Assembly (NCBI GenBank): GCA_000175855.1
Contig: ACYB01000035.1
Coordinates: forward strand, 330,001 to 362,000
From: Raphidiopsis brookii D9
GTDB lineage: Bacteria > Cyanobacteriota > Cyanobacteriia > Cyanobacteriales > Nostocaceae
DNA: 32,000 nt
Reading direction: 5' to 3'
Shown here: positions 13,464-29,263 of the stretch, one piece after another
How the letters are laid out: every line of letters starts with the position of its first letter
Numbering within the stretch: position 1 is the first letter of the stretch
Notes under the pieces: generated by a model
The model's input: the letters and a program-made list of their open reading frames with translations, nothing else
Database searches by the model: none
Told to the model about the DNA's origin: nothing
Translations under genes and position numbers: made by a program

Positions 13464-14870
13464 CTAGTCTTTTTGAATCGCATAGCATAAGGTACCAATA
13501 AACCATCCTGAATGCTGAGGACTTTTGGCAATTTCCGATTGCATAGTTTCCGTTCTAACTTTTAGGGCGGTAAAAAATTCTTGTAAATTATAGGTTTTGG
13601 AACCATCTTCCTCTCCGGTTCTGGTTTGCCAATCCCATTCTTTCCACCAATTGGGAACCGCTAGGGAAGAATTAATTAGATCAAACTGTAACTTGTAAAT
13701 ACCTGGTTCAGATAATTTATCAGGTTGGATAACTGCTGCAAATTTTGCTTGATTTTCCTCGGGGAGAATTTGCCAATCCTTTAATTCTATGGATGAAATT
13801 ATTTCTGAATTGCTATCGACCTGTACAAAAGTCCTCTTAAATCTATCAAACTTTTCACCTTTTACCTGAGCTTTAATCGTACTTGGATCTAGCAGTAAAC
13901 TATATTCTGAATGGAGGAAACTCACACCATAGTTAATGGTTGAACTCTGCTTTAAAGAAGAACTCAATTTTAGCATTTCCTGGTTACTTTTACTAACCAC
14001 CACACCCCCATTAACTAGGGAAAAAGGTTCAGTAATACCCTGTGGTAAGGACATGGGTGTCGCATCTAAAACAGAGATTTTATCCAATATATGATCAGGA
14101 TGAAAAATCATGAACTTGCTGTTATCACTATTTAGCAAAGCCTGATTTGTATTGTATTTTTTCAGCTGACTGAAATAGTATTTAATATCGCCATAAGGTC
14201 CAACAAATAATACATAAAATGGACGAAACTTTGCCGATTCTTGACCTGTATTATAGTCAAAACTTCTTGGATTGTTACCCTCTAAATAAATCTTACCGTC
14301 AAATTCACTTTTAATAGCCCAAATTCCTACCGCATAATCTCGATTCTCAATATTATAATAAGTATTATTAATTAATTTATTTAGCTTGGTTACATCTCCA
14401 CTATTTTGCTGCAGATCAGTAATAATCACAGTCATTTTTTTCTGCTCCTTTTCCGGGGAAATAATAGCAGCATCTATGGGACTGGAAACTTCTGGAAACT
14501 GGTTACTACTGCCATCATAAAATGTGGTGGTAACTCCATAATTATAGTATTCACTACTGGTGATCTTTTGCATAGGGCTACCAATTCGATAATATTCAAC
14601 CGGCAATTTATCACTTAACTCAAATAAATTTCTGATTGACTTGAGAGTGCTAACGTAGTTGGTTTCTCCCCCTCTTACATATCCTAACATGGAGCCACTA
14701 CCATCCAAGTAAATGCTTACACTGAGGTTATTTGATTTACTAGTATTAGCATTCTCCGCTGGAGTATGGCCAAGTTCGCATTTCAACTCTTCTTTTTTGT
14801 TACAAGCCACTATAAAAAGACTAAGTAACAACATAATCAAGCCTTTGCGGAAGTATGCTTCATGTATCAT
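13464..14870 (-). CDS. Predicted lipoprotein with an N-terminal vWA-like (MIDAS) domain and a C-terminal region of unknown function
   Basis: Signal sequence with lipobox LFIVAC (Cys codon at 14802-14804). The DGSGS (DxSxS) motif is encoded at 14691-14705 and a later TVIITDLQQN strand fits a von Willebrand A fold. The gene is divergent from the 15055 operon. Confidence 0.6.
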   Translation of the reverse strand: MIHEAYFRKGLIMLLLSLFIVACNKKEELKCELGHTPAENANTSKSNNLSVSIYLDGSGSMLGYVRGGETNYVSTLKSIRNLFELSDKLPVEYYRIGSPMQKITSSEYYNYGVTTTFYDGSSNQFPEVSSPIDAAIISPEKEQKKMTVIITDLQQNSGDVTKLNKLINNTYYNIENRDYAVGIWAIKSEFDGKIYLEGNNPRSFDYNTGQESAKFRPFYVLFVGPYGDIKYYFSQLKKYNTNQALLNSDNSKFMIFHPDHILDKISVLDATPMSLPQGITEPFSLVNGGVVVSKSNQEMLKLSSSLKQSSTINYGVSFLHSEYSLLLDPSTIKAQVKGEKFDRFKRTFVQVDSNSEIISSIELKDWQILPEENQAKFAAVIQPDKLSEPGIYKLQFDLINSSLAVPNWWKEWDWQTRTGEEDGSKTYNLQEFFTALKVRTETMQSEIAKSPQHSGWFIGTLCYAIQKD

Positions 14871-14891
14871 TTTTAACTCCTATTTGTCAAA

Positions 14892-14919
14892 ATTATTTTA
14901 TTACTTATTATAAAATAAT
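14892..14919. promoter_or_regulatory. AT-rich inverted repeat in the divergent promoter region (candidate operator)
   Basis: The 10-bp arms attattttat (14892-14901) and ataaaataat (14910-14919) are separated by 8 nt. They lie between the divergently oriented genes starting at 14870 (minus) and 15055 (plus). Confidence 0.3.
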
Positions 14920-15054
14920 ATTAAGTAACTTTACCACCAGTTCTATTGCAAATCCAAGAGTAGTATGTTAGCATAAGGGGAAACAACCATACTGAGTTTC
15001 AACAAAACGAGAAAATATTACAATATAAAAAAATACAAAAAATAGGGAGGGTTA

Positions 15055-15525
15055 ATGAAGTCCTGGCAACAAAGGATTATTGCATTCGCTTTCATTGGTG
15101 GAATCGTGATGTTTTTAGGACAAAGGGTAGTCTATGAGAATCAAATTGTACCCATTCAGCAAGTGCCAGTAGACGCTTGGCTGGTTAGTGACTATACCAA
15201 TGCTGCTCTCGCCATGTTTTTTGCTTGTCTTGTTTCAACATTACTTTGGTGTGCATTGGCAGAAAAGAGTCGCTTCAATGATGGAGCCGCTACAGCTCGA
15301 TGGAGATTACTCTGGTGGTTATTGGGAATAATACCAATGGTGACCATTGCGATCGCGGTTTTTTACATTAATCGGAGTAGCGAAGCTCACTTTTCACTAA
15401 TGGCATTCTTTTTGCTGGATGCCATCTTACTGTACTGGTTACCAACAGCAACCAGCTCCCCTGAAGCAGTAAAATATGTTCCACCATTGGCCTTTTGGTT
15501 GCGTCATAAACTAATGGGAGACTGA
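15055..15525 (+). CDS. Small integral membrane protein (about 4 TM helices), first gene of the candidate operon
   Basis: A strong SD (GGGAGGG) lies 5 nt before the ATG. There are four hydrophobic segments. The stop is 6 nt before the next ATG. Confidence 0.7.
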   Translation: MKSWQQRIIAFAFIGGIVMFLGQRVVYENQIVPIQQVPVDAWLVSDYTNAALAMFFACLVSTLLWCALAEKSRFNDGAATARWRLLWWLLGIIPMVTIAIAVFYINRSSEAHFSLMAFFLLDAILLYWLPTATSSPEAVKYVPPLAFWLRHKLMGD

Positions 15526-15531
15526 GGAAAA

Positions 15532-16467
15532 ATGTCAATTTATGTGATTGGAATTGGTGGTACTGGGGCTAAATCTATTGAAGCAATAATTCAATTAACA
15601 GCTATTGGACTCTTTGGGGAACAATCTGTAAAGTTATTGTTTGTGGACACTGATGAAACCAATGGTAATGTTTCCAGAGCGTTGAATAGTTTAGACACTT
15701 ACAATAAATGTTATGAGCTAGGACTAAATGGTAAATACCCGTGGATGCGCACAGAGATTGAACCCTTCCCCCTATGGTCACCATTCGCCGATAATCTTAC
15801 TAACAAAAACCTGGCAGTTATTTTTAACTACAATCTGGTCAAAGAAAATGATGCAGCTCTGGGTAATTTATTTGATGTACTTTATACATCAAAAGAGCGA
15901 GAAGCCAACTTGGACGTGGGTTTTAGGGGGAGACCTAACATTGGTGCGGCGGTGATGAGCCAAGTAAAAATGGATACTATTGATAATGATTTTTGGGGAA
16001 GTTTGATGGGTAAAATTCAGCAAGATACGGGAGGAGGAAAGCGACCAAAAATCTTTTTATGTGGTTCAATTTTTGGGGGAACAGGAGCTTCAGGACTGCC
16101 AACCATTGGGAGATTAATTCATAATAGATTGGAAACACTAAAAATTAGGGAGAAAGTGGATTTAGGGTGTCTATTTGTCTTGCCTTATTTTAGCTTTACA
16201 CCTGATGAGAATTCAGAGGAAGTTTACGCCCGTTCTGAACAGTTTCTTTTAAACACAGAGGCGGCACTCCGTTATTATGGCAGTCAGCCCCAGGAAATAT
16301 TTGACGTGGTTTATTTATTGGGTAATCAGCAATTATCCACGGTCAAAAAGTTCAGTATTGGCAAAAATACCCAGTGTAATGATCCTCATTTTATTGAACT
16401 TTATGCCGCGTTAGCAGCGCGACAGTTTTCATTAAAAACTACCCCGGGACAAAAACGGTGGTATTAA
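15532..16467 (+). CDS. Tubulin/FtsZ-superfamily GTPase-domain protein (311 aa)
   Basis: Motif order matches FtsZ loops T1-T5: IYVIGIGGTGAKS (T1), FVDTDETNG, GFRGRPNIGAAV (T3-like), FLCGSIFGGTGASGLPTIGRLI (T4 signature region, nt 16075-16095) and FVLPYFSF (T5-like). A GAGGA Shine-Dalgarno sequence is present. Confidence 0.7.
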   Translation: MSIYVIGIGGTGAKSIEAIIQLTAIGLFGEQSVKLLFVDTDETNGNVSRALNSLDTYNKCYELGLNGKYPWMRTEIEPFPLWSPFADNLTNKNLAVIFNYNLVKENDAALGNLFDVLYTSKEREANLDVGFRGRPNIGAAVMSQVKMDTIDNDFWGSLMGKIQQDTGGGKRPKIFLCGSIFGGTGASGLPTIGRLIHNRLETLKIREKVDLGCLFVLPYFSFTPDENSEEVYARSEQFLLNTEAALRYYGSQPQEIFDVVYLLGNQQLSTVKKFSIGKNTQCNDPHFIELYAALAARQFSLKTTPGQKRWY

Positions 16468-17039
16468 TGAATAGAGAAAATTCAAGAAACCTAACCTGGA
16501 AGGATATTCCAGATATGCAGGAAGTTTATCCAGAAATTGTAAATGCTACTCGTTTTGCCCTGGTTTGGTTATCTAATATTGCCCCGGAATTAGAACAGGC
16601 TAAAAAGATGGGTGAAAAAGTTTTTAGAACTGGTGCTGGTAGAAGTTGGTTTGTTAAATTTTTCCCAGCTTCCAGAGGGATTTTAGGAGGAGGTAGTCAA
16701 CCAATCGTTGATTTCAACAACATTAAAGAACAAGAGGCAATACAAATAATTAGCAATTGGTGTAACGACTATTTACGCTGGCTATGGAGTATTCATCAGT
16801 GTCAGGAAGAGAGTATTCAATTATTTAATGGAGATTATCTAAATACAGGAAATCTCAATGCCGAAAATCTAGCCAATTTAATTATTGAACAAACCGATAG
16901 TCGAGATAGAAACAAAAAGTCCCTGGATACAATTCAGAAACTTAAAGAAAGATTAGATCCTCAATCTATACCTGCGCCCAATTTTGGGGTTATTGGGCTT
17001 GCTAAATCTTTGTATCATGTTTGTAGGTTAACAGACTAA
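16467..17039 (+). CDS. Hypothetical protein (190 aa), translationally coupled to the tubulin-like gene
   Basis: The ATG overlaps the upstream TAA (TAATG at 16465-16469). The track's GTG at 16458 is an alternative start. No motif was recognised. Confidence 0.55.
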   Translation: MNRENSRNLTWKDIPDMQEVYPEIVNATRFALVWLSNIAPELEQAKKMGEKVFRTGAGRSWFVKFFPASRGILGGGSQPIVDFNNIKEQEAIQIISNWCNDYLRWLWSIHQCQEESIQLFNGDYLNTGNLNAENLANLIIEQTDSRDRNKKSLDTIQKLKERLDPQSIPAPNFGVIGLAKSLYHVCRLTD

Positions 17040-17089
17040 GAAATACTTGATTGAAAATTGGTGAATTAAAAAAGCAAGGGAAACTATAT

Positions 17090-17545
17090 ATGACAAGTTT
17101 ATTGTTACCAAGACTCAAAGATGATTGCGATGTTAAATCTGGAGTTGCTGGTGTGTGGGATGCTCAAGCACCAAATACCTTTAATCAAGTTGCTTCCAGT
17201 TTGGATTACAAAGCACCGGGAGAAATCAAAAATATCAGCTCTGTCCCCACTATTTGGGCCCGTCCTTTATCAGTAGAAATGGCATTGCATAATGATAAGT
17301 ATCCAATTCGAGAACAAATCATTGTTCAGTGGCAAGGAATGTTAACGGTTTTAGCCTTAGCAGAAGTGCGCGGGTTCCCCATTAAAGCCCAACTTTTGGA
17401 ATTAGGAGCTAAAAAGGATACTGACAATTTTGCTCGTTCTTTATATGAACTGTTACCAGATGATGGCAATAGTATTTACAAATTCAGTAATAACAAAAAT
17501 CCTTGGGAAGATTTATATATTTTACCTGGGATAATTCTCCCGTAG
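17090..17545 (+). CDS. Hypothetical protein (151 aa); possibly the N-terminal part of the following large protein
   Basis: ATG at 17090 (TTG at 17051 in the track). The ORF ends at the TAG at 17543-17545 and overlaps the upstream-open frame of the next ORF. Confidence 0.5.
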   Translation: MTSLLLPRLKDDCDVKSGVAGVWDAQAPNTFNQVASSLDYKAPGEIKNISSVPTIWARPLSVEMALHNDKYPIREQIIVQWQGMLTVLALAEVRGFPIKAQLLELGAKKDTDNFARSLYELLPDDGNSIYKFSNNKNPWEDLYILPGIILP

Positions 17546-17547
17546 GA

Positions 17548-20337
17548 ATGACTTCTCCAAGCACCTTAGTTGTTCCCGCTGAAGAAGGTATTTGGAATGG
17601 TTTACCTTGGTGGAATTCTACTAAAATGAGGTTTGAACCAGTACATAAATATTTAAATGATATTGAAAAAGCCCAGCTAGTATTTTGGTTAGATAACCTA
17701 AAAACAGAAATTGGGAAGCACCAAGGTAATGCTAGAGCGGTAAACACTATAGTTGGGTTAATCAATGATTTTATTGGCAGTTTGTCAGTGGAATCTTTAC
17801 CCGATTTTCAATTGACAAGCAATACAACATTTTTTGATGTCCCCTTAAATAGGGGAGCTTTAGCTGGCATGAATCTTCCTGTGAAGGTTCAATGGAGAGA
17901 ATCTAATGTGCGGGTAATTCCCAGCATGAATAAAGCTAATGTTAGACCACTATTAATTGTGGATAAAGAGATAGCGACAAGCTGGAATGAGGTATTACAA
18001 AACATTTGGGTTCACGAGGGAAAAACCTTAGCAGCTTTGCGTCCTGAAGATATAGAAAGATGGAATAAAACTAAGGAAGTAATTTGCCTAGCATCACAGG
18101 ATTTATTCCTACCTGAATTAAAATTTATAGATAAAGAAGGCATTTTACCCGGTGCTTTGCTTCCTGATGGCGGACATTCCTTAGTATTTAAAGGTCAGCA
18201 TATTACGCCTTTAATTCCCATCAATCCAATTTTATTTAGCTATTTCACACCAGAAGATTTAGCCACGAAAATTATCAAGCTTCAACTAACTAGAAATAAT
18301 TCCGGTACATCCCTGGTTAGAGTAACTTTGTCTATCCCTTTATACGGAGTAAAACAAGGGCAAGGTTCCCAGAATTTTTATGTTTACAAAGAATACCCTC
18401 TCTTGGAAGAAAATATCATTACAGAAGTGCCAGTTTTGGAAATATGGCCGGATTTCCGTGTAGAGGGATGGCAAGAATATTATGGCTTTTACTATGATGC
18501 TGCTTTGGGGGAAGACACCTTTCAAGTCAGTTTTCCTGCTGCCAAAAACACGCATAGTTTTAAAGAAGGACGGGATGCTTATCAAGTAGTTCATTTAGAA
18601 GAGTTTCCATCTTTTATTGACTGTAAAGATATCCATAAAAATACCATTGGTCTGATTTTGCTATCAACTCCAGAACAAATTAACCTAGATGGTAAATGGG
18701 TCGTTGGTGTTGACTTTGGCACATCTTTTACCAACATTTACGTCAATAAAAATAGTAGAGTTGTGGAACGTCTGGGACGAGAAAATCTCCACCGTAAAGT
18801 TACAGATGTTGCTATTGATACTAGATTCCCTAGCCTGTTTGAATTTTTCATTCCCGAAAGCTTTATTCCTGTGGATAAGCCTTTTCCCCTATCGACGGTA
18901 TTAACAACTAGGGGGAAAACTAATGCTAGGGAAGAACAAGTAAGTCCAATTTTTGATGGGCGCATTTATAGTCCTAACCTTAAAGGTTTTTCTCCCCAAG
19001 AAACATGGATAAAAACCAACTTAAAGTGGTCAACTACTAATCTTACAGATAATGAATTATTCCTCAAACACTTGGCGTTACATATTACAGCTCTAGCTGC
19101 TAGTAATGGCGTAAAAGAAATTCAATGGTCTTTATCATTTCCCTCAGCCTTCTCCTCGAGAGAACAAAATAGATACGCCTCAACGTGGAAAAGATTATTG
19201 TCTAAATTAGACCAAACTACAGGAATTAGCCATGTTATTCCAGAAAAAGATGATCCTAATTATTTTCGGACTGAAAGTATAGCATTTGCCCAATACTTTG
19301 CTGAACAAGAAAAAGGGTGTGATTTAGTTGGCAGTACCTGTATTGATATGGGTGGTGGTACTGCGGATATTTCTATCTGGGAAGATGATAAACTCCTACA
19401 TCAGTGTTCGATTTTGTTAGCGGGTAGTGAACTGTTTTCCCAGTTCATAGAAATGAAACCTAACTTTTTGAAAAAACTGGATCCTGATATTAAAGATATT
19501 AATGTTTGGGAAAGGCTAAGAGGTGCGGCTTTTAATGCTAAATTAGATGTGTGGATGCGTTTAGAGGCAGCAAATTGGTTAGAAAATAAAAGGGATAGAT
19601 TTGAGGAGGATAAGGAATTTCAAGGTCTAATCCGTCTTATGGCAATTGGTATTGCTGGATTATATTTCTATATAGGTCAAATTCTCTTTGTTCTCTCTCA
19701 AGAGGGAAAATATTCAAGAGATGAAATTACCCGAGTTTATATTGGTGGGAATGGTTCCCGTTTATTACACTGGTTAGCAGAAGGTGGTGAATTTACTCGT
19801 CACTCAGAAATCAATGGTTTATTTAATCAAATGATGACTGTATCTGCCAAATTAGCAGACACGGAGGAACCTACACGTCTGAGTCAAAACCCTAAAGATG
19901 AAGCTGCTTGCGGTTTAGTTTTAAGAACAAGAGAATTAGAAGGTTTGGGTAAAAAGGATAAGGATCCCATTATTGCTGGTGAAGATTGTATTATCAGTGG
20001 TGAAAGGTTTGGTTACCAAGAACGGTTAGATTTTAGAGGTAACAGTGTTACCCAATATGAAATTCCATCCCTAGGTCAATTGAAGTTGTTTTTAGATGCT
20101 TTTCACATCGGTTTAGATGATTTGGGTATTGAAACCATAAAGCCATTAGAAAAATACCGGGTTAAAGACCCAGGTTCAGAATATAATGTGAAATTGTGGC
20201 GTGCAACAGAAAGGGATTTGAGAAATTCTCTTAATGCTATCCAGGGTAATATTGAAGACATTAGAGAAGAACCCCCTTTTATAATGGCATTAAAAGCACT
20301 TCTAAGAGTCCTAGGTAGAGAATGGGCTGGGAAATAA
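17548..20337 (+). CDS. Large protein: N-terminal ~390 aa unknown region plus a C-terminal Hsp70/actin-fold (ASKHA) ATPase domain
   Basis: Phosphate-1 WVVGVDFGTSFTNIY (nt 18703-18741), WSLSFPSAFSSREQNRY (compare Hsp70 ITVPAYFND), ESIAFAQYF, phosphate-2 CIDMGGGTADISIW (nt 19339-19380), LAGSELFSQF, and adenosine motif VYIGGNGSRLL (nt 19735-19767). The ATG at 17548 is 2 nt after the upstream TAG, and the frame is open from 17503. Confidence 0.75.
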   Translation: MTSPSTLVVPAEEGIWNGLPWWNSTKMRFEPVHKYLNDIEKAQLVFWLDNLKTEIGKHQGNARAVNTIVGLINDFIGSLSVESLPDFQLTSNTTFFDVPLNRGALAGMNLPVKVQWRESNVRVIPSMNKANVRPLLIVDKEIATSWNEVLQNIWVHEGKTLAALRPEDIERWNKTKEVICLASQDLFLPELKFIDKEGILPGALLPDGGHSLVFKGQHITPLIPINPILFSYFTPEDLATKIIKLQLTRNNSGTSLVRVTLSIPLYGVKQGQGSQNFYVYKEYPLLEENIITEVPVLEIWPDFRVEGWQEYYGFYYDAALGEDTFQVSFPAAKNTHSFKEGRDAYQVVHLEEFPSFIDCKDIHKNTIGLILLSTPEQINLDGKWVVGVDFGTSFTNIYVNKNSRVVERLGRENLHRKVTDVAIDTRFPSLFEFFIPESFIPVDKPFPLSTVLTTRGKTNAREEQVSPIFDGRIYSPNLKGFSPQETWIKTNLKWSTTNLTDNELFLKHLALHITALAASNGVKEIQWSLSFPSAFSSREQNRYASTWKRLLSKLDQTTGISHVIPEKDDPNYFRTESIAFAQYFAEQEKGCDLVGSTCIDMGGGTADISIWEDDKLLHQCSILLAGSELFSQFIEMKPNFLKKLDPDIKDINVWERLRGAAFNAKLDVWMRLEAANWLENKRDRFEEDKEFQGLIRLMAIGIAGLYFYIGQILFVLSQEGKYSRDEITRVYIGGNGSRLLHWLAEGGEFTRHSEINGLFNQMMTVSAKLADTEEPTRLSQNPKDEAACGLVLRTRELEGLGKKDKDPIIAGEDCIISGERFGYQERLDFRGNSVTQYEIPSLGQLKLFLDAFHIGLDDLGIETIKPLEKYRVKDPGSEYNVKLWRATERDLRNSLNAIQGNIEDIREEPPFIMALKALLRVLGREWAGK

Positions 20338-20465
20338 ATTAGATGTTACCTGGAGGCTTTAATTTTATTAAAGCGCCATTGATAAATAGACTTAACTAAA
20401 TTGAGTAAATCCAATTGCTCGCTTACTTCCTTAAACCTATCCCTTGCTGAAGTTAGAGGTTGAAA

Positions 20466-21320
20466 ATGAAACACTTAAAATGCCCTGTTTGTGACTGTGA
20501 ATACAGTAAAGAAGTAAATCAGGTTTGTCCAACTTGCTCTTGGCGCATTATATCATATCCCTTATCTTATTCATATAATCTAAGTTTAATGGGAGCAAAA
20601 AGACAGGAGGAGATATTAGAATGGGAATGGGCTAATAAGTGGGCTAAAGCAATGTGGCAAAAATTATGTGAATTAAATGAAGAAAATTTGGTGCTACGCC
20701 AAAAGAATGATTCATTATCGGAAAAACATTTACAAAGTTTGCAGGACATACATAGTAATACTCAACATTTACCGGAAATATTAAGTATTTTACGCCAAAT
20801 CAGTGAAAAATACCAAAGAATTGACACTTTTTCTGACCCTTCTCAACTCCATGGGGAATCGGAGCAAATAGGTGAACAGAAAAATTACTTTTCAACTGAT
20901 CAAAAACAGTGCAGCGATGATTATATAGATGATTATATAATTGATGACCCACAAGTAATTAGTTTAGTGGAAACTTATAATAGTCATGGAGATTTTCTGG
21001 ATAAAATAGAAGTTTCTGAAACAGAAGATAGCAAGTCCCATCGTTGGTGTGGTGGTAAGGATCCGGCAATTTTTGAAGCTAATCACAAAAGTAGGGGAGA
21101 TTATTGGATTATTGATAATCAATATTTAGTGCCAAAATACGGGCAAAAGATTAATCAGCATAGTTATGAAACTATATCCATATTGTTTGAATGCTTAAAT
21201 TATCACTATAACGATTCCGTTGGTTTAAGGAGTATGATATTAGTTAAACCTGCTAAGGTTTCTCCCATTCATGATCAAGAAAAATGGAAATTACAAGACA
21301 CTGGAACTTTACAGTTTTAA
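20466..21320 (+). CDS. Zn-ribbon (CPVC...CPTC) plus coiled-coil protein with a C-terminal shared ~120-aa domain (paralog 1)
   Basis: N-terminal MKHLKCPVCDCEYSKEVNQVCPTCSW. The C-terminal domain (about nt 20946-21317) ends in LVKPAKVSP...KWKLQDTGTLQF. Confidence 0.65.
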   Translation: MKHLKCPVCDCEYSKEVNQVCPTCSWRIISYPLSYSYNLSLMGAKRQEEILEWEWANKWAKAMWQKLCELNEENLVLRQKNDSLSEKHLQSLQDIHSNTQHLPEILSILRQISEKYQRIDTFSDPSQLHGESEQIGEQKNYFSTDQKQCSDDYIDDYIIDDPQVISLVETYNSHGDFLDKIEVSETEDSKSHRWCGGKDPAIFEANHKSRGDYWIIDNQYLVPKYGQKINQHSYETISILFECLNYHYNDSVGLRSMILVKPAKVSPIHDQEKWKLQDTGTLQF

Positions 21321-21345
21321 TCAAAAACTAACCTTGGGGAATTAT

Positions 21346-22890
21346 ATGAAACTTATTAAGTATCACTTTTGCTTAACTCTGGCATTATCTGGCAAAATGC
21401 TCTTGGCCACACCACTTTATGCTACCGATATGGATAAACCGGTACAAACCCCAAACAACAATAGTGGCAATATTGAAGTTGTTAGTATCAATCACCAACG
21501 GAATATTCTAGAAAAATTTGCAGGTCTAAAAAATGCAGTAAAGTCCTTAAATCAGGACCTAAAAATTTTTGTTCAAGACAAGAAAAATACTGGAAGTTTA
21601 AATTCTAAAAAAGTTATTAGCCAAATTAATCAGTTAAAGCAAGAAGTTGCTAAATTATCTCTAACTCCCCAGTTATCTCCTTCAGTCAAAAGGAGTAATA
21701 GTATAATTAAAGAACTTGAACGTACTATGAAATATCTAGAAGACGGATTGAAAAAAAATGGAGTAACTGGAATACAAAAGTATTTGGGCTTTTTTGCCAG
21801 GAGAAGAGTAAATAACAAATACTATGGAAATTTTGGAGAGACAACACAGGAAGAAATAGAGAAATTTACTAATAAAAAAATCCAGGAACTGGAAAAAGAA
21901 ATTAAAATTATTAGTTCTTTGACTCCTAAATCTTTAACTGCTAGTAATAGCAAAAAACTTGTATTAAGTAATAGCAGTAATGTTAGTAATATTGATGGTA
22001 ATATTAACAATGATAGTAATAGTGATAAGGTTATTAACCCAAATTCTCAGCTATATAATTCGTCCAATAATTCAGAAGAGATGGCAGCACTTAAAAGAGA
22101 TTTATCTCGGATGGGTCTCATAATAGTCGTTTTATCTCTAATGTTTGCAGTTTTTGCTATTGTCTGTCTTTATAAACTTTATGAAGTTTTAGAAAACCCA
22201 GATAACCTTAACAGACTGATGAAGAATAATCAGGATATTAAGAATATTTACCAAGAGTTGAAAAATCTTAGTGGTAGACTAAAGAAACTTGAAACCTATC
22301 GGCAAAGTTTAACTGGTAATCCCAGTCCCAACTCAGATAAGTCAGATCAGTCCTCTAAGTCTCAACTTGATCAATTTTCTGCAAGTTCCCAAATTACAAA
22401 ACAAGTTAATCCAATTAATTCGGTTAATCGAGGTAAACCTCAAAAACCAACAATGGGTACCTCGTATAAGTTACACAAATTGTCAGGATCATTAGAGTCA
22501 AATAAAGAGTCAAATAGTGTTGCTAATCCCGGAAATCAATTGGTACGGGAATATAATAGTGGCGCTAGGTCACTAGCAAATACGGCAATTATTGTATCAG
22601 AAAGTGAACTTACAGCTGAACAACGTCGTCTTGGTCGTGATAGTCAACCTATTTTAGAGCCAAATAACCGGGGTAATTATTGGATTATTAACCATGGTGA
22701 TATGGATTACCTGGTTCCTAAACCGACAATGAAAGTTAATAATCATAATTATAACACCATGTCTAGACTTTTTAATTGTTTGGAATATGACCCTAACTCT
22801 AGTAAGTCTTTTAAACTGATTAACCCAGCAAAAGTTTCCCCAATGGGTGAAAAATGGCAGTTAGTCGAGGAGGGGGAATTACAATTTTAG
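21346..22890 (+). CDS. Bitopic membrane protein: signal peptide, coiled-coil and low-complexity ectodomain, one TM, then the cytoplasmic shared ~120-aa domain (paralog 2)
   Basis: ATG at 21346 with signal-like MKLIKYHFCLTLALSGKMLLATPLYA. The TM segment MGLIIVVLSLMFAVFAIVCLY is at nt 22111-22173. The C-terminal domain (nt 22537-22887) ends in LINPAKVSPMGEKWQLVEEGELQF. The track's 21271 start overlaps the previous gene and is unlikely. Confidence 0.65.
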   Translation: MKLIKYHFCLTLALSGKMLLATPLYATDMDKPVQTPNNNSGNIEVVSINHQRNILEKFAGLKNAVKSLNQDLKIFVQDKKNTGSLNSKKVISQINQLKQEVAKLSLTPQLSPSVKRSNSIIKELERTMKYLEDGLKKNGVTGIQKYLGFFARRRVNNKYYGNFGETTQEEIEKFTNKKIQELEKEIKIISSLTPKSLTASNSKKLVLSNSSNVSNIDGNINNDSNSDKVINPNSQLYNSSNNSEEMAALKRDLSRMGLIIVVLSLMFAVFAIVCLYKLYEVLENPDNLNRLMKNNQDIKNIYQELKNLSGRLKKLETYRQSLTGNPSPNSDKSDQSSKSQLDQFSASSQITKQVNPINSVNRGKPQKPTMGTSYKLHKLSGSLESNKESNSVANPGNQLVREYNSGARSLANTAIIVSESELTAEQRRLGRDSQPILEPNNRGNYWIINHGDMDYLVPKPTMKVNNHNYNTMSRLFNCLEYDPNSSKSFKLINPAKVSPMGEKWQLVEEGELQF

Positions 22891-23007
22891 GTTATGGTCC
22901 CAGTTATAGTTGTTATATTTATAGTATTAAGGCGCTTGGCTTGATAATTTTTTTTTGAGAAACAGATTTTTCTAGAATAACTTTGTTAACAATTGGAGAT
23001 TTTAAAT

Positions 23008-23895
23008 ATGGTTGATTTAAATGATATTGTTCATAGAATCGAAGAAATAGAAAATCACTTACTAATGTTAGCTGACCGCGTACAAGATGACTCAGTTATG
23101 GTAACTGGTGCTTGGAAAGTGCCAAAAATTATCCCCACAAATATATCTGAACTGGAAATAATAAAAGTTTATAATGATGTACCTAAAGTTTTATTTAAAA
23201 ACTCAATTGTTACGGAGTTAACCGAAGAAAGTTATCGAGAAGATAACCGAGATCAATCAATTATCTTGGAATTTGATCAATATGGTAAATATTGGTTAAT
23301 CGTCTCAGATGAGAATAATGTTTTTGTTTTACCTGCAATGGATATCAAGTTACACATTTATAAGCTAAAAAGCATGGCTAAGGTATTTGATTTTCAGGGC
23401 ACTCCCTCTATGGAAAATCATTGTCTGTTAATTAAACCTGCAAAGGTTCAAAGTTTACCTAGTGGGAGAGAATGGAAACTAGAACAAAAGGGAATTCTAG
23501 AGTTTACTAGTAATGTTCATCAAGATTCGTTGAGAAATTTCTTTTATACCTTACAGGATAGTCAAGCAAATACCAATTTAGAAATACTCAAAATTAATAA
23601 GCAATTAAGTCAAATTGAACTGCAATTACAACAGGTTCCTGAAGAGAGTCAAAATATAGGTTGGCAAGTTAACATATCAGAAACCATTAAAGATAACCAA
23701 GCAAATACCAATTTAGAAATACTCAAAATTAATAAGCAATTAAATCAAATTGAACTGCAATTGCAGGAGTTCTCTCAACGGTTTCAAGACTTACAGTATA
23801 AACTTACAAAAATGTCAGTTGATATTAAAGATTATTTTGACCTACAAGTAGATTTACTTAAGGTCCGTTTAGAATCCTTGGAAAATATAAAGTGA
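23008..23895 (+). CDS. Soluble coiled-coil protein with the shared ~120-aa domain in the centre and a duplicated C-terminal coiled-coil unit (paralog 3)
   Basis: The domain lies at about nt 23152-23505 (GKYWLIV...LLIKPAKVQSLPSGREWKLEQKGILEF). It is followed by two copies of QANTNLEILKINKQL(S/N)QIELQLQ. Confidence 0.6.
   Translation: MVDLNDIVHRIEEIENHLLMLADRVQDDSVMVTGAWKVPKIIPTNISELEIIKVYNDVPKVLFKNSIVTELTEESYREDNRDQSIILEFDQYGKYWLIVSDENNVFVLPAMDIKLHIYKLKSMAKVFDFQGTPSMENHCLLIKPAKVQSLPSGREWKLEQKGILEFTSNVHQDSLRNFFYTLQDSQANTNLEILKINKQLSQIELQLQQVPEESQNIGWQVNISETIKDNQANTNLEILKINKQLNQIELQLQEFSQRFQDLQYKLTKMSVDIKDYFDLQVDLLKVRLESLENIK
23563..23762 (+). repeat. Intragenic direct repeat: two 65-bp copies with a 135-bp period
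   Basis: Positions 23563-23627 and 23698-23762 are identical except for one position (g/a). The repeat is in frame (45 aa period). Confidence 0.9.
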
Positions 23896-23993: not shown

Positions 23994-24877
23994 CTAGTCA
24001 TTATCCCAGGCCAACTTAGCTGCACCTACCATACCTGCACTATTACCCAATTGTGCTGGTAAAATTTGTAGACCCATACGAGAACTTGGTAAAACACGTC
24101 TTTCAATTTCTTCTTGCATTGCTGGTAAAAAATACTCGAAACTAGCACTAATACCACCACCAATAATAATTGCTTGGGGGGTAAGTACATATATTAAACT
24201 GGTTAAACCAATGCCCAGGTCTCTACCATATTCTTGCCAAAAAGTCAAGGACTGAATATCACCTTGTTTAGCCAATTCCCCTAGTCTAGCTGGGTCCTTT
24301 CCTGTGCGACGATGAATAGCACCAATGGAGGTGTATTGTTCTAAAGAACCTTGATTACCACTGTTACATGATGGCCCATTAGGATTAAGAGTAATTAGTC
24401 CTAGTTCCCCTGCTGCACCTTGATGACCAACAAATAGTTTGCCATGCAAAATAATAGCTCCACCCACACCGGTTCCCAAGGTCAACAAGATTAAGTTTTG
24501 AAAATCACGCCCTGCACCTAACCAAGCTTCTCCTAATCCTGCGCAATTGGCATCATTGGCAAGAATTGTGGGTATTCCCGTACGGTTTTCTAACCATTCT
24601 GCTAATGGTACATTGTCCCATCCCTCAAGATTGATGGCCACTTTGGCAACTCTCCCCGTTGCATCCACAGGTCCTGGAGTTCCTACCCCCATGCCTAGGA
24701 TTCTATCATTCTGCTCAATCAGGGAATTTATCCCCCTAACATTGTAGATAATACAGCTTCTGGAGTCGCTGGTTTAGGAGTCTGTAATATTATAGTTTGT
24801 AAGCAGTTACCATTAGGATCAAATACGCCTAGTTTTATGGATGTTCCACCTATATCAATACCAATTACCACTTCCAT
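23994..24877 (-). pseudogene. ROK-family sugar kinase (glucokinase-like) interrupted by a 1-nt frame break in a C5/G5 homopolymer
   Basis: The N-terminal 49 codons (24877-24731: MEVVIGIDIGGTSIKLGVFD...) end at a TAA at 24728-24730. The downstream frame reads ...GINSLIEQNDRILGMGVGTPGPVD...ANDANCAGLGE. One extra base in the run at 24732-24736 would join the two frames. Confidence 0.8.
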
Positions 24878-29148: not shown

Positions 29149-29240
29149 TCAAAACTAGTGATATATTCTAGTTGTGTGTGAGGAGCAAATTTCAAGAAGC
29201 GCTTAGGGTGGAAACACGGCAACACTCCTGGGCGCTTTTT
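29149..29240 (-). ncRNA. Candidate Yfr1-like small RNA (strand assignment uncertain)
   Basis: The minus strand reads GCUCCUCACACAC (complement of 29176-29185 = CUCCUCACAC), a 10/11 match to the conserved unpaired Yfr1 element ACUCCUCACAC. It is flanked by two hairpins (29198-29236 and 29153-29173), as in the published Yfr1 architecture. Against this reading, the larger hairpin pairs better on the plus strand. Confidence 0.35.
29198..29240 (+). terminator. Rho-independent terminator on the plus strand
   Basis: AGCGCUUAGGG (29198-29208) pairs with UCCUGGGCGCU (29226-29236) over 11 bp, including three G-U pairs that become C-A mismatches on the other strand. A UUUUU run follows through 29240. 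Confidence 0.6.
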
Positions 29241-29263
29241 GATTGTCTAGCTTTAGTCAGAAC

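What the first reader, a model, noticed from the sequence alone, without database searches (positions are those of the whole stretch)
15532..17039. Short FtsZ/tubulin-fold GTPase lacking an obvious C-terminal/T7 domain, coupled by TAATG to a 190-aa unknown ORF
The 311-aa product reproduces the order of the FtsZ nucleotide-binding loops: GIGGTGAKS (T1), VDTDETNG, GFRGRPNIG (T3-like), GSIFGGTGASGLP (T4) and VLPYFSF (T5). Its T4 region GGTGASG is only a near match to the tubulin signature [SAG]-G-G-T-G-[SA]-G and to FtsZ GGGTGTG. I also could not see a T7-type synergy loop or an FtsZ-like C-terminal domain. The next ORF starts on the stop codon and could supply the missing C-terminal function as a separate subunit. 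Its frame is closed by a TGA at 16395-16397, so this is not a simple recent frameshift of one long gene.
Basis: partly seen in the sequence, partly recalled or inferred. Interest (0 to 1): 0.7.

Follow-up and report, generated by a model that had tools for sequence, protein, structure and literature searches.

The report
Frameshift-split tubulin-like gene, not two subunits
The "short FtsZ plus 190-aa partner" is one ordinary 502-residue cyanobacterial tubulin-like gene cut in two by a single missing A in a run of A's, most likely a 454 sequencing error, so there is no new two-subunit tubulin here.

Summary
The two ORFs, the FtsZ-like motifs, the TAATG overlap and the upstream TGA are all in the sequence. 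Adding one A to the A5 run at 16451-16455 joins both ORFs into a 502-aa protein. It aligns end to end with more than 120 cyanobacterial homologues of 490-512 aa, the best 97% identical. A profile search found 2159 cluster representatives, almost all about 500 aa. A 96.6%-identical metagenome contig has A6 at this site and an intact gene.

The window is Raphidiopsis brookii D9 (EFA72853.1/EFA72854.1), sequenced on 454/GS20. Two more one-base homopolymer losses split the next gene (1082 aa when intact) and an unrelated glucokinase. The pattern fits pyrosequencing undercalls, but a real recent mutation is not excluded.

The intact protein is a divergent member of Pfam Tubulin_2, the family built around FtsZ-like 1 (Makarova and Koonin 2010). 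Its N-terminal domain has an FtsZ/tubulin fold. Its C-terminal part is helical and not FtsZ-like, as already described for that family.

The gene sits in a conserved, uncharacterised cyanobacterial operon: a 4-TM protein, the tubulin-like protein, a giant Hsp70/actin-fold ATPase (fused to it in some organisms) and variable paralogues. Interest in the finding as stated is low. The operon is moderately interesting.

The parts
15532..17039 (+). One tubulin-like (Tubulin_2 / FtsZ-like-1-related) gene, 502 aa when intact. In the window it reads as ORF1 15532-16467 plus ORF2 16467-17039.
   Evidence: One added A gives a 1509-nt ORF, the same length as the intact gene in L001, with no other stop. It covers 97-100% of >120 homologues of 490-512 aa. 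The junction TPGQK-TVVLMNRE is conserved. It differs at 2 of 459 positions from C. raciborskii PAMP2012 P0403, which reads exactly the repaired junction.
16451..16455 (+). A5 homopolymer, the site of the one-base loss that splits the gene (A6 in the intact relative).
   Evidence: The gapped blastn alignment of window and L001 shows a single-base gap here, AAAAAA versus AAAAA.
15055..15525 (+). 156-aa protein with four predicted transmembrane segments. Its stop lies 6 nt before the tubulin-like start. It is the first gene of the conserved operon.
   Evidence: Hydropathy scan. Found immediately upstream and co-directional in 77 of 80 related genome loci. No Pfam or NCBIfam hit.
17090..20337 (+). 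Giant partner gene, 1082 aa when intact, with an Hsp70/actin-fold (ASKHA) ATPase domain in residues ~535-900. In the window it is split into 17051-17545 and 17503-20337.
   Evidence: T5 to T4 at 17520-17523 relative to L001. Repair gives a 3249-nt ORF. Homologues are ~1075-1118 aa. AF2 pLDDT 85.6. Foldseek top hits are BiP/DnaK NBD, MreB and ParM, E ~2e-6, TM up to 0.58. Motifs DFGTS 542 and DMGGGT 753. Adjacent in 78 of 80 loci. Fused to the tubulin-like protein in P0309 and P0280.
17520..17523 (+). T4 homopolymer, the site of the second one-base loss (T5 in the intact relative).
20460..21320 (+). 286-aa variable operon protein: N-terminal CxxC...CxxC zinc ribbon, a coiled-coil-like middle, and a ~75-aa C-terminal domain shared with the next two genes.
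   Evidence: Sequence and motif inspection. Alignment of the shared domain. Weak rubredoxin-like hit. Relatives downstream in 61 of 80 loci at only 23-44% identity.
21271..22890 (+). 539-aa variable operon protein: one central TM segment, a low-complexity N/S-rich region, and the same C-terminal domain.
   Evidence: In-frame 18-nt length difference from L001.
22993..23895 (+). 300-aa variable operon protein: the shared domain in the N-terminal half, followed by coiled-coil repeats.
13464..14870 (-). Divergently transcribed 468-aa putative lipoprotein (signal peptide ending IVAC) with a DGSGS MIDAS-like motif. It may be a vWA-like partner.
   Evidence: Sequence. Found upstream on the opposite strand in 59 of 80 loci. 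No Pfam, NCBIfam or PADLOC hit, so the vWA assignment rests on the motif alone.

Best explanation
Window 15532-17039 is a single gene for a 502-residue tubulin-superfamily protein, a divergent Pfam Tubulin_2 / FtsZ-like-1 relative. In this record it has lost one A from an A6 run at 16451-16455. This creates a premature stop (ORF1) and leaves the last 190 codons as an apparent second ORF that begins at an internal Met codon.

The loss is most likely a homopolymer undercall of the 454/GS20 assembly of Raphidiopsis brookii D9. Whether artefact or real mutation, it is not an evolved two-subunit arrangement.

Inferred for the intact protein:
- It binds GTP through conserved T1, T3, T4 and T5-like loops in an FtsZ-fold N-terminal domain.
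- That domain packs against a family-specific helical C-terminal part in place of an FtsZ C-terminal domain.
- It works with the Hsp70/actin-fold giant ATPase encoded next to it, a small 4-TM protein, and rapidly diverging coiled-coil paralogues.
- Together these would form a membrane-associated, nucleotide-driven assembly whose biological role is still unknown.
For: One gene:
- The conceptual one-base repair gives 502 aa covering 97-100% of >120 homologues of 490-512 aa, the best 97% identical.
- A profile search finds 2159 representatives with E <= 0.001, nearly all 480-520 aa and matched end to end.
- The family motif VVLMNRE spans the break.
- In the AF2 model (pLDDT 85, pTM 0.90) residues 309-313 form a beta-strand and the whole chain is one compact unit.

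One-base lesion:
- L001 is 96.6% identical over 8.2 kb. Inside these two genes it shows only two single-base gaps against the window: A6/A5 in this gene and T5/T4 in the next. Every other coding-region indel in the 8.2 kb is a multiple of three.
- Repair restores ORFs of exactly 1509 and 3249 nt. Synonymous changes outnumber non-synonymous ones: 27:19 and 30:16.
- C. raciborskii PAMP2012 (2 differences in 459 aa) reads ...GQKTVVLMNRE....

Artefact:
- ORF1 and ORF2 are EFA72853.1 and EFA72854.1 of R. brookii D9.
- That genome was assembled from 454/GS20 reads at 27x with few Sanger reads (PMC2821919).
- A third one-base loss in a G-run splits an unrelated ROK glucokinase 8 kb away.
- All three are losses in runs of 5-6 bases. 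From general knowledge, this is the typical pyrosequencing error.

Family:
- PF13809 scores above cut-off for ORF1. All 81 aligned homologues hit it at E <= 0.01, best 3.5e-11.
- Foldseek's six matches with E <= 0.001 are FtsZ or tubulin, and CetZ and PhuZ follow at E 2-3e-3.

Operon:
- The 4-TM protein, the tubulin-like protein and the giant protein are adjacent in 77-78 of 80 loci.
- The tubulin-like and giant proteins are fused in P0309 and P0280.
Against: - No reads or independent resequencing of D9 were available. The repaired proteins are not present as exact sequences in the 15-billion-protein collection, so a real frameshift in D9 cannot be excluded.
- D9 has a reduced genome, in which real gene decay is plausible.
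- Tubulin-fold evidence is qualitative. Foldseek TM-scores are only 0.2-0.39, and a Rossmann-type reductase appears from rank 7.
- PF00091 is below its cut-off. The PF13809 match covers only about 70 residues around T4.
- GTP binding, hydrolysis, polymerisation and the functional link to the neighbouring genes are inferred, not shown.
Confidence: 0.9

Rival explanations
1. The one-base deletion is real in strain D9. The tubulin-like gene, and the giant ATPase gene after it, are recent pseudogenes in a genome undergoing reduction.
For: Mutations also favour homopolymers. D9 has the smallest genome among the filamentous cyanobacteria compared in its genome paper (PMC2821919). Two adjacent genes of one operon are both hit. 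Another Cylindrospermopsis assembly (LB2897, L084) retains only the 3' 190-codon part of the gene next to unrelated DNA. No independent intact D9 sequence was found.
Against: A third, identical type of lesion lies in an unrelated housekeeping glucokinase. That fits a technology error better than selective loss. There are no further stops or decay downstream of either break. Synonymous changes outnumber non-synonymous ones. The platform was 454/GS20 with minimal Sanger correction.
Confidence: 0.17
2. One reading: an evolved split in which a 311-aa GTPase domain and a translationally coupled 190-aa subunit assemble into a two-chain tubulin-like protein.
For: The TAATG overlap exists. The break falls near the boundary between the FtsZ-like N-terminal domain and the helical C-terminal part.
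Against: Homologues are fused essentially without exception. The few short representatives listed are other sequences, not the window's protein: one of 311 aa, one of 330 aa that also stops near the domain boundary, and one of 379 aa with an unrelated tail. Their origin was not examined. The split deletes the invariant V310 and L312 and the beta-strand 309-313. ORF2's ATG is an internal Met that is not conserved across the family. The nearest strains, 2-16 aa different, are intact. The same kind of lesion occurs in two other genes.
Confidence: 0.02
3. If the A5 allele is real, full-length protein is still made at a low level. A -1 slip of tRNA-Lys on the A run (CAA AAA CGG) would give exactly the native junction GQK-TVVLMN.
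For: Reading the sequence directly, a -1 slip after AAA makes ACG GTG GTA TTA ATG the next codons, which reproduces the conserved sequence.
Against: Five A's is a weak slippery site, and no stimulatory structure was looked for. All relatives encode the protein in one frame, so this would be accidental leakiness and not a programmed mechanism.
Confidence: 0.02

Closest known systems
FtsZ-like 1 (FtsZl1) family of Makarova and Koonin 2010 = Pfam PF13809 Tubulin_2
   Same: N-terminal FtsZ/tubulin-type nucleotide-binding domain with recognisable T1 and T4 loops. No confidently identifiable T6-H7/T7 elements. No FtsZ or tubulin C-terminal domain, and an alpha-helical C-terminal part instead. The organism also has a conventional FtsZ, from general knowledge. 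The operon includes membrane proteins and a possible vWA-like protein (PMC2875224; PF13809 hits).
   Different: About 500 aa instead of about 900-1100 aa, with no long coiled coil. The PF13809 match is marginal (29-32 bits, about 70 residues). The 2010 list holds a different Trichodesmium gene (Tery_1707 at 2.60 Mb) from the orthologue found here at 1.86 Mb. The constant partner here is a giant Hsp70/actin-fold protein, not the OmpA proteins, protein kinases or P-loop GTPases of the published operons.
FtsZ, TubZ, PhuZ and CetZ (canonical prokaryotic tubulin-superfamily cytomotive proteins)
   Same: Best structural matches of the AF2 model. Same order of T1, T3, T4 and T5-like loops. GGTGASG occupies the position of GGGTG[ST]G.
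   Different: PF00091 is below threshold. There is no sequence match to any PDB chain. TM-scores are only 0.2-0.39. The C-terminal GTPase-activating domain and the canonical T7 motif are absent, so head-to-tail polymerisation with T7-stimulated hydrolysis cannot be assumed.
NTP-dependent conflict systems of Kaur, Burroughs, Iyer and Aravind 2020 (GTPase-centric systems with tubulin or HSP70 components; VMAP ternary systems)
   Same: Tubulin-family and HSP70-family proteins are combined with membrane, vWA-like and highly variable components in multicellular bacteria (PMC7159879). One homologue of the giant partner (P0229) carries N-terminal Trypsin_2 and VMAP-M1 domains beside a Trypco1 gene.
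   Different: No DO-GTPase, GAP1, MoxR or Pfam-recognisable vWA was found in the operon. The published tubulin-containing versions are in Firmicutes and Actinobacteria. There are no PADLOC hits. The core appears vertically conserved across cyanobacterial orders, unlike typical defence islands.
Homopolymer-length errors of 454 pyrosequencing assemblies
   Same: Three single-base losses, each in a run of 5-6 identical bases, in a GS20-based draft.
   Different: Nothing distinguishes them from real slippage mutations without the reads.

Membership tests
FtsZ/tubulin superfamily | Glycine-rich T4 signature GGGTG[ST]G / [SAG]GGTG[SA]G, with T1, T3 and T5 loops in the canonical order | tested here: met
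   GIGGTGAK (T1), GFRGRPNIG (T3-like), FGGTGASG (T4, a near match with one extra residue) and LPYF.F (T5-like). Their key residues are invariant in 81 homologues.
FtsZ/tubulin superfamily | Significant match to PF00091 (Tubulin/FtsZ GTPase domain) above the gathering score | tested here: not met
   22 bits for ORF1 and 17 bits for P0001, against a cut-off of 33. Only residues 2-46 match. 31 of 81 homologues reach E <= 0.01.
FtsZ/tubulin superfamily | FtsZ/tubulin fold of the nucleotide-binding domain | tested here: inconclusive
FtsZ/tubulin superfamily | T7 synergy loop and C-terminal GTPase-activating domain (alpha/beta, FtsZ_C or Tubulin_C) | tested here: not met
   After helix 287-302 and strand 309-313 the model is almost entirely helical. 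No FtsZ_C or Tubulin_C Pfam hit. A conserved W-x-D-[IL]-P-[DE] segment at 323-328 sits at the topologically equivalent place, but its role is only a guess.
FtsZ/tubulin superfamily | GTP binding and hydrolysis, and GTP-dependent polymerisation | not testable with these tools
   Needs purified protein.
Pfam Tubulin_2 (PF13809) / FtsZ-like 1 | Score at or above the PF13809 gathering cut-off (27 bits) | tested here: met
   ORF1 31.6 bits, P0001 29.2 bits. All 81 aligned homologues match at E <= 0.01, best 3.5e-11. PF13809 is precomputed for most hits.
Pfam Tubulin_2 (PF13809) / FtsZ-like 1 | Architecture: N-terminal FtsZ-like domain, extended coiled coil, helical C-terminal domain (about 900-1100 aa) | tested here: not met
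   The family here is about 500 aa. There is no long coiled coil in the model; the longest helix is 329-360. Cyanobacterial FtsZl1 proteins listed in 2010 are 910-1114 aa and are different genes.
Pfam Tubulin_2 (PF13809) / FtsZ-like 1 | Operon with a vWA-domain protein | tested here: inconclusive
   The divergent 468-aa lipoprotein has a DGSGS motif and is conserved in 59 of 80 loci. It gives no vWA hit in Pfam or NCBIfam.
   More than 120 close homologues and about 2000 representatives are single chains of about 500 aa. The junction is conserved across the break.
DO-GTPase/GAP1 conflict systems (Kaur et al. 2020) | TRAFAC-clade DO-GTPase(s) plus GAP1 as core genes | tested here: not met
   No Walker A motif in any operon protein. 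No Pfam hit to GAP1 or GTPase families.
Known anti-phage defence systems (PADLOC-DB 2.0) | A match of any operon protein to a PADLOC model | tested here: not met
   No hits for 10 proteins of the region.

The most novel reading that the evidence does not exclude
Leaving the frameshift aside, the intact locus could be an undescribed two-NTPase machine that is conserved and apparently vertically inherited across cyanobacteria. Its parts would be:
- a ~500-aa tubulin-superfamily GTPase without a canonical T7 loop or FtsZ C-terminal domain;
- a ~1080-aa Hsp70/actin-fold ATPase, obligatorily paired with it and fused to it in some organisms;
- a 4-TM anchor;
- a set of fast-evolving coiled-coil paralogues sharing a novel ~75-aa domain;
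- a divergent MIDAS-motif lipoprotein.

It might act in membrane or envelope remodelling, or as a conflict or cell-death system of multicellular bacteria. One partner homologue carries Trypsin and VMAP-M1 modules. This ~500-aa family was not in the 2010 FtsZl1 census, and I found no paper that describes the operon.
Probability: 0.45. Interest if true: 0.55.

Novelty: new member of a known kind. Interest (0 to 1): 0.12.

Why it matters
- It removes a false lead. There is no minimal FtsZ with a detachable C-terminal subunit here. There is only a broken copy of a normal gene in an old 454 draft, which GenBank still lists as two hypothetical proteins.
- It flags at least three homopolymer frameshifts in 32 kb of the R. 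brookii D9 assembly. This matters for anyone using that genome for gene-content or 'minimal genome' arguments.
- It shows that the intact gene belongs to a large, uncharacterised, ~500-aa branch of the Tubulin_2 family (about 2000 clusters at 50% identity). This branch is tightly coupled to an Hsp70/actin-fold giant protein in cyanobacteria. That pairing would be worth an experiment, but the present finding does not establish it.

Tried and rejected
- PADLOC and NCBIfam scans of ten proteins of the region gave nothing for the operon proteins. Only the DHFR next door was recognised.
- A profile search of the family against all PDB sequences gave no hit at E <= 1.
- The first AF2 run of the 1082-aa partner failed and was repeated.
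- Exact look-up of the three repaired proteins, to find an independent resequencing of D9, found none.
- Literature searches for the locus tags, PF13809 and tubulin/vWA/Hsp70 combinations found only the 2010 FtsZl1 paper, a 2023 phylogeny that sets Tubulin_2 proteins aside, and the 2020 conflict-systems paper. Nothing covers this operon.
- I considered the DO-GTPase/GAP1 tubulin systems and rejected membership, because no P-loop GTPase or GAP1 is present.
- I considered the LB2897 190-aa ORF as independent support for a real split. I rejected it because that contig simply loses homology upstream of window position 16449 and continues into unrelated DNA.
- Rfam and tRNA scans found nothing in the locus.
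Full report
**1. What the sequence shows**

The window holds an ATG-started ORF at 15532-16467 (311 aa). A second ORF's ATG at 16467-16469 overlaps the TAA stop, giving TAATG, and runs to 17039 (190 aa). The second frame is closed upstream by TGA at 16395-16397 and is open from 16398.

They are not a chance pattern. ORF1 scores 31.6 bits on Pfam PF13809 'Tubulin_2' (cut-off 27). It also gives a sub-threshold hit of its first 46 residues to PF00091.

**2. The two ORFs are one gene**

I inserted one A into the A5 run at 16451-16455 and translated the result. This gives a 502-aa protein whose junction reads ...SLKTTPGQK-TVVLMNRENS.... Searching with it returned more than 120 cyanobacterial proteins of 490-512 aa that cover 97-100% of the query. 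The best, P0001, is 97% identical and exactly 502 aa.

V310, L312 and R315 are invariant. V310 and L312 are encoded upstream of ORF2's ATG in ORF2's frame, so both predicted products lack them. ORF2's 'start' is an internal Met that is not conserved in the family.

A profile of 81 homologues was searched against 1.84 billion cluster representatives. It found 2159 proteins with E <= 0.001 and 1035 with E <= 1e-30. Almost all are 480-520 aa and match end to end. The few shorter entries listed are different sequences whose origin I did not examine.

**3. The lesion at nucleotide level**

P0001 is encoded on an 8221-bp metagenome contig, L001. Its intact operon encodes products of 156, 502, 1082, 280 and 545 aa. 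L001 aligns to window 14851-23053 at 96.6% identity.

Within these two genes there are only two single-base gaps:
- A6 (L001) versus A5 (window) at 16451-16455.
- T5 versus T4 at 17520-17523 in the next gene.

All other coding indels in the aligned 8.2 kb are multiples of three. Repairing each site with one base yields ORFs of exactly 1509 and 3249 nt, the lengths of the L001 genes, with no other stop. Synonymous differences outnumber non-synonymous ones, 27:19 and 30:16. There is no sign of decay.

A near-identical Cylindrospermopsis raciborskii MAG protein (P0403, 2 differences in 459 aa) reads exactly the repaired junction GQKTVVLMNRE.

This does not hold, because the lesion lies inside the 69-nt stretch where both frames are open.

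**4. Artefact or real mutation?**

Exact look-up identifies ORF1 and ORF2 as EFA72853.1 (CRD_02231) and EFA72854.1 (CRD_02232) of Raphidiopsis brookii D9. That draft was assembled from 454/GS20 reads at 27x, with only a few hundred Sanger reads (PMC2821919).

Eight kb downstream, an unrelated ROK glucokinase on the minus strand is split in the same way. Adding one G to the run at 24732-24736 restores a 294-aa protein that includes the N-terminal DIGGT motif.

That makes three single-base losses in 32 kb, each in a run whose true length is 5-6. By general knowledge this is the classic pyrosequencing undercall, at about the expected rate for GS20 consensus. I put the probability of an artefact near 0.8.

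It is not proven:
- The repaired proteins are not in the public collection as exact sequences.
- D9 has a reduced genome.
- A real slippage mutation would look the same.

If the A5 allele were real, a -1 slip of tRNA-Lys on CAA AAA CGG would regenerate the native junction. This is only a remark from reading the sequence.

**5. What the intact protein is**

All 81 aligned homologues hit PF13809 (best E 3.5e-11), and 31 hit PF00091. No PDB chain is detectable by sequence.

AlphaFold2 on P0001 with the 81-sequence alignment gives a confident single-unit model (pLDDT 85.1, pTM 0.90). Its elements are:
- Alternating strands and helices up to residue ~263.
- A helix at 287-302.
- A strand at 309-313, which is the VVLMN motif cut by the frameshift.
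- An almost purely helical remainder, with helices 329-360, 398-422, 486-497 and shorter ones.

Foldseek against the PDB puts FtsZ (S. mutans, B. subtilis, E. coli) and tubulins in its six matches with E <= 0.001. CetZ and PhuZ follow at E 2-3e-3, and probabilities are 0.99-1.0. TM-scores are only 0.2-0.39, and SDR-type Rossmann enzymes appear from rank 7. The nucleotide-binding domain is therefore best read as a very divergent FtsZ/tubulin fold. An FtsZ-type C-terminal domain and a canonical T7 loop are indeed missing.

This is not new. Makarova and Koonin (2010, PMC2875224) described exactly this for their FtsZ-like 1 family: T1 and T4 present, T6-H7 not identifiable, and a helical C-terminus. 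A later phylogeny equates FtsZ-like proteins with Pfam Tubulin_2 (PMC9871819).

The present ~500-aa family is nevertheless a distinct branch:
- It lacks the long coiled coil.
- It is half the size.
- The 2010 census lists a different Trichodesmium gene (Tery_1707, 1090 aa, at 2.60 Mb) from the orthologue found here at 1.86 Mb.

**6. Genomic context and likely mode of action (inferred)**

In 80 related genome loci, all cyanobacterial apart from one contig binned as Chloroflexaceae, the arrangement is conserved:
- A 156-aa protein with four TM segments lies immediately upstream in 77 of 80.
- The ~1082-aa protein lies immediately downstream in 78 of 80.
- A divergently transcribed ~468-aa protein lies upstream in 59 of 80. 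It has a lipoprotein signal and a DGSGS MIDAS-like motif, but no recognisable vWA hit.
- Downstream lie one to several poorly conserved proteins (23-50% identity).

In the window these downstream proteins are three paralogues that share a ~75-aa C-terminal domain. One combines it with a zinc ribbon, one with a TM segment, and one with coiled coils.

The 1082-aa partner models well (pLDDT 85.6). Its residues ~535-900 match Hsp70 nucleotide-binding domains, MreB and ParM (E ~2e-6, TM up to 0.58). It has DFGTS and DMGGGT phosphate motifs.

Two representatives, P0309 (1605 aa) and P0280, are natural fusions of the tubulin-like protein and this partner. This supports a direct physical partnership. 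One partner homologue, P0229, carries N-terminal Trypsin_2 and VMAP-M1 domains next to a Trypco1 gene on a ParA/ParB-bearing contig. That links the module to the effector-sharing network of conflict systems described by Kaur et al. 2020 (PMC7159879). The defining DO-GTPase/GAP1 or MoxR/vWA cores of those systems are absent here, and PADLOC finds nothing.

My best guess is a membrane-anchored assembly. In it, a GTP-dependent tubulin-like subunit and an ATP-dependent Hsp70/actin-fold subunit act together on, or through, the variable coiled-coil proteins. Whether it serves envelope or membrane remodelling or a conflict or cell-death function is open. None of this is shown.

**7. Verdict**

The tubulin-superfamily assignment and the absence of an FtsZ C-terminal domain hold. 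The 'short protein plus separate subunit' and 'not a frameshift' claims do not.

The thing is a frameshift-split copy, very probably through sequencing error, of a member of a known but uncharacterised family. Interest in the finding as stated is low. The intact operon is a reasonable but separate lead.

Noticed in passing
window 17090-20337 (+), break at 17520-17523: The gene after the tubulin-like gene (1082 aa when intact, Hsp70/actin-fold ATPase) is also split, into 164-aa and 944-aa ORFs, by loss of one T from a T5 run. Repair restores a 3249-nt ORF.
   Followed up: yes
window 23994-24877 (-), break at 24732-24736: An unrelated ROK-family glucokinase is split by loss of one G from a G-run. 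Repair gives a full 294-aa protein. This is the third homopolymer frameshift in 32 kb and points to 454 assembly errors in R. brookii D9.
   Followed up: yes
window 30649 to ~31235 (-): The conserved N-terminus of RecR ([18 protein letters not shown]) is encoded in frame upstream of the first ATG/GTG/TTG. A good Shine-Dalgarno (AGGAGA) is followed 6 nt later by ACG. This suggests a non-canonical or miscalled start codon.
   Followed up: partly
window 29172-29243 (+): Rfam Cyano-1 sRNA (RF01701), 50.7 bits against a gathering score of 41, in the 1-kb gap upstream of the lipoate-protein ligase-like gene.
   Followed up: no
L084 (C. raciborskii LB2897, VOIM01000141.1) 1178-1769: This assembly keeps only the 3' 190-codon part of the tubulin-like gene. 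Homology to the window starts at window position 16449, a few bases from the D9 frameshift site, and the upstream DNA is unrelated. The downstream genes there are also shortened (929 aa; 139 + 363 aa). It is either a rearrangement or a chimeric contig.
   Followed up: partly
P0309 (L085 309-5126) and P0280: Natural fusions of the tubulin-like protein (residues 1 to ~470) with the giant Hsp70/actin-fold partner (P0309 residues 508-1597, 35% identity to P0121, E 3e-167). This is Rosetta-stone evidence that the two proteins work together.
   Followed up: partly
P0229 (L086 5639-9733): A homologue of the giant partner carries N-terminal Trypsin_2 and VMAP-M1 domains. It sits next to a Trypco1 gene and ParA/ParB on an 11.5-kb contig, with no tubulin-like gene nearby. 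This links it to the VMAP-type conflict systems of Kaur et al. 2020.
   Followed up: partly
window 20460-21320, 21271-22890, 22993-23895 (+): Three consecutive genes encode paralogues sharing an unannotated ~75-aa domain (G.YW.I...P...K...F...L..PAKV...W.L..G.L.F). It is combined with a zinc ribbon, a TM segment or coiled coils. Orthologues are only 23-50% identical while the core genes are 50-76% identical.
   Followed up: partly
window ~20927 and ~22013 versus L001: In-frame length polymorphisms between near-identical strains in the variable genes. A 12-nt repeated unit (GATGATTATATA) is present twice in the window, and an 18-nt stretch is missing from an Asn/Ser-rich low-complexity tract.
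   Followed up: no
JGI metagenome 3300059473 contig carrying P0390 (no DNA held): A distant family member (512 aa) is preceded by 500-aa and 175-aa genes in the same order as here. Divergently transcribed Trypsin_2, DUF805 and SNase genes lie beside it, which looks like an effector-type neighbourhood.
   Followed up: no
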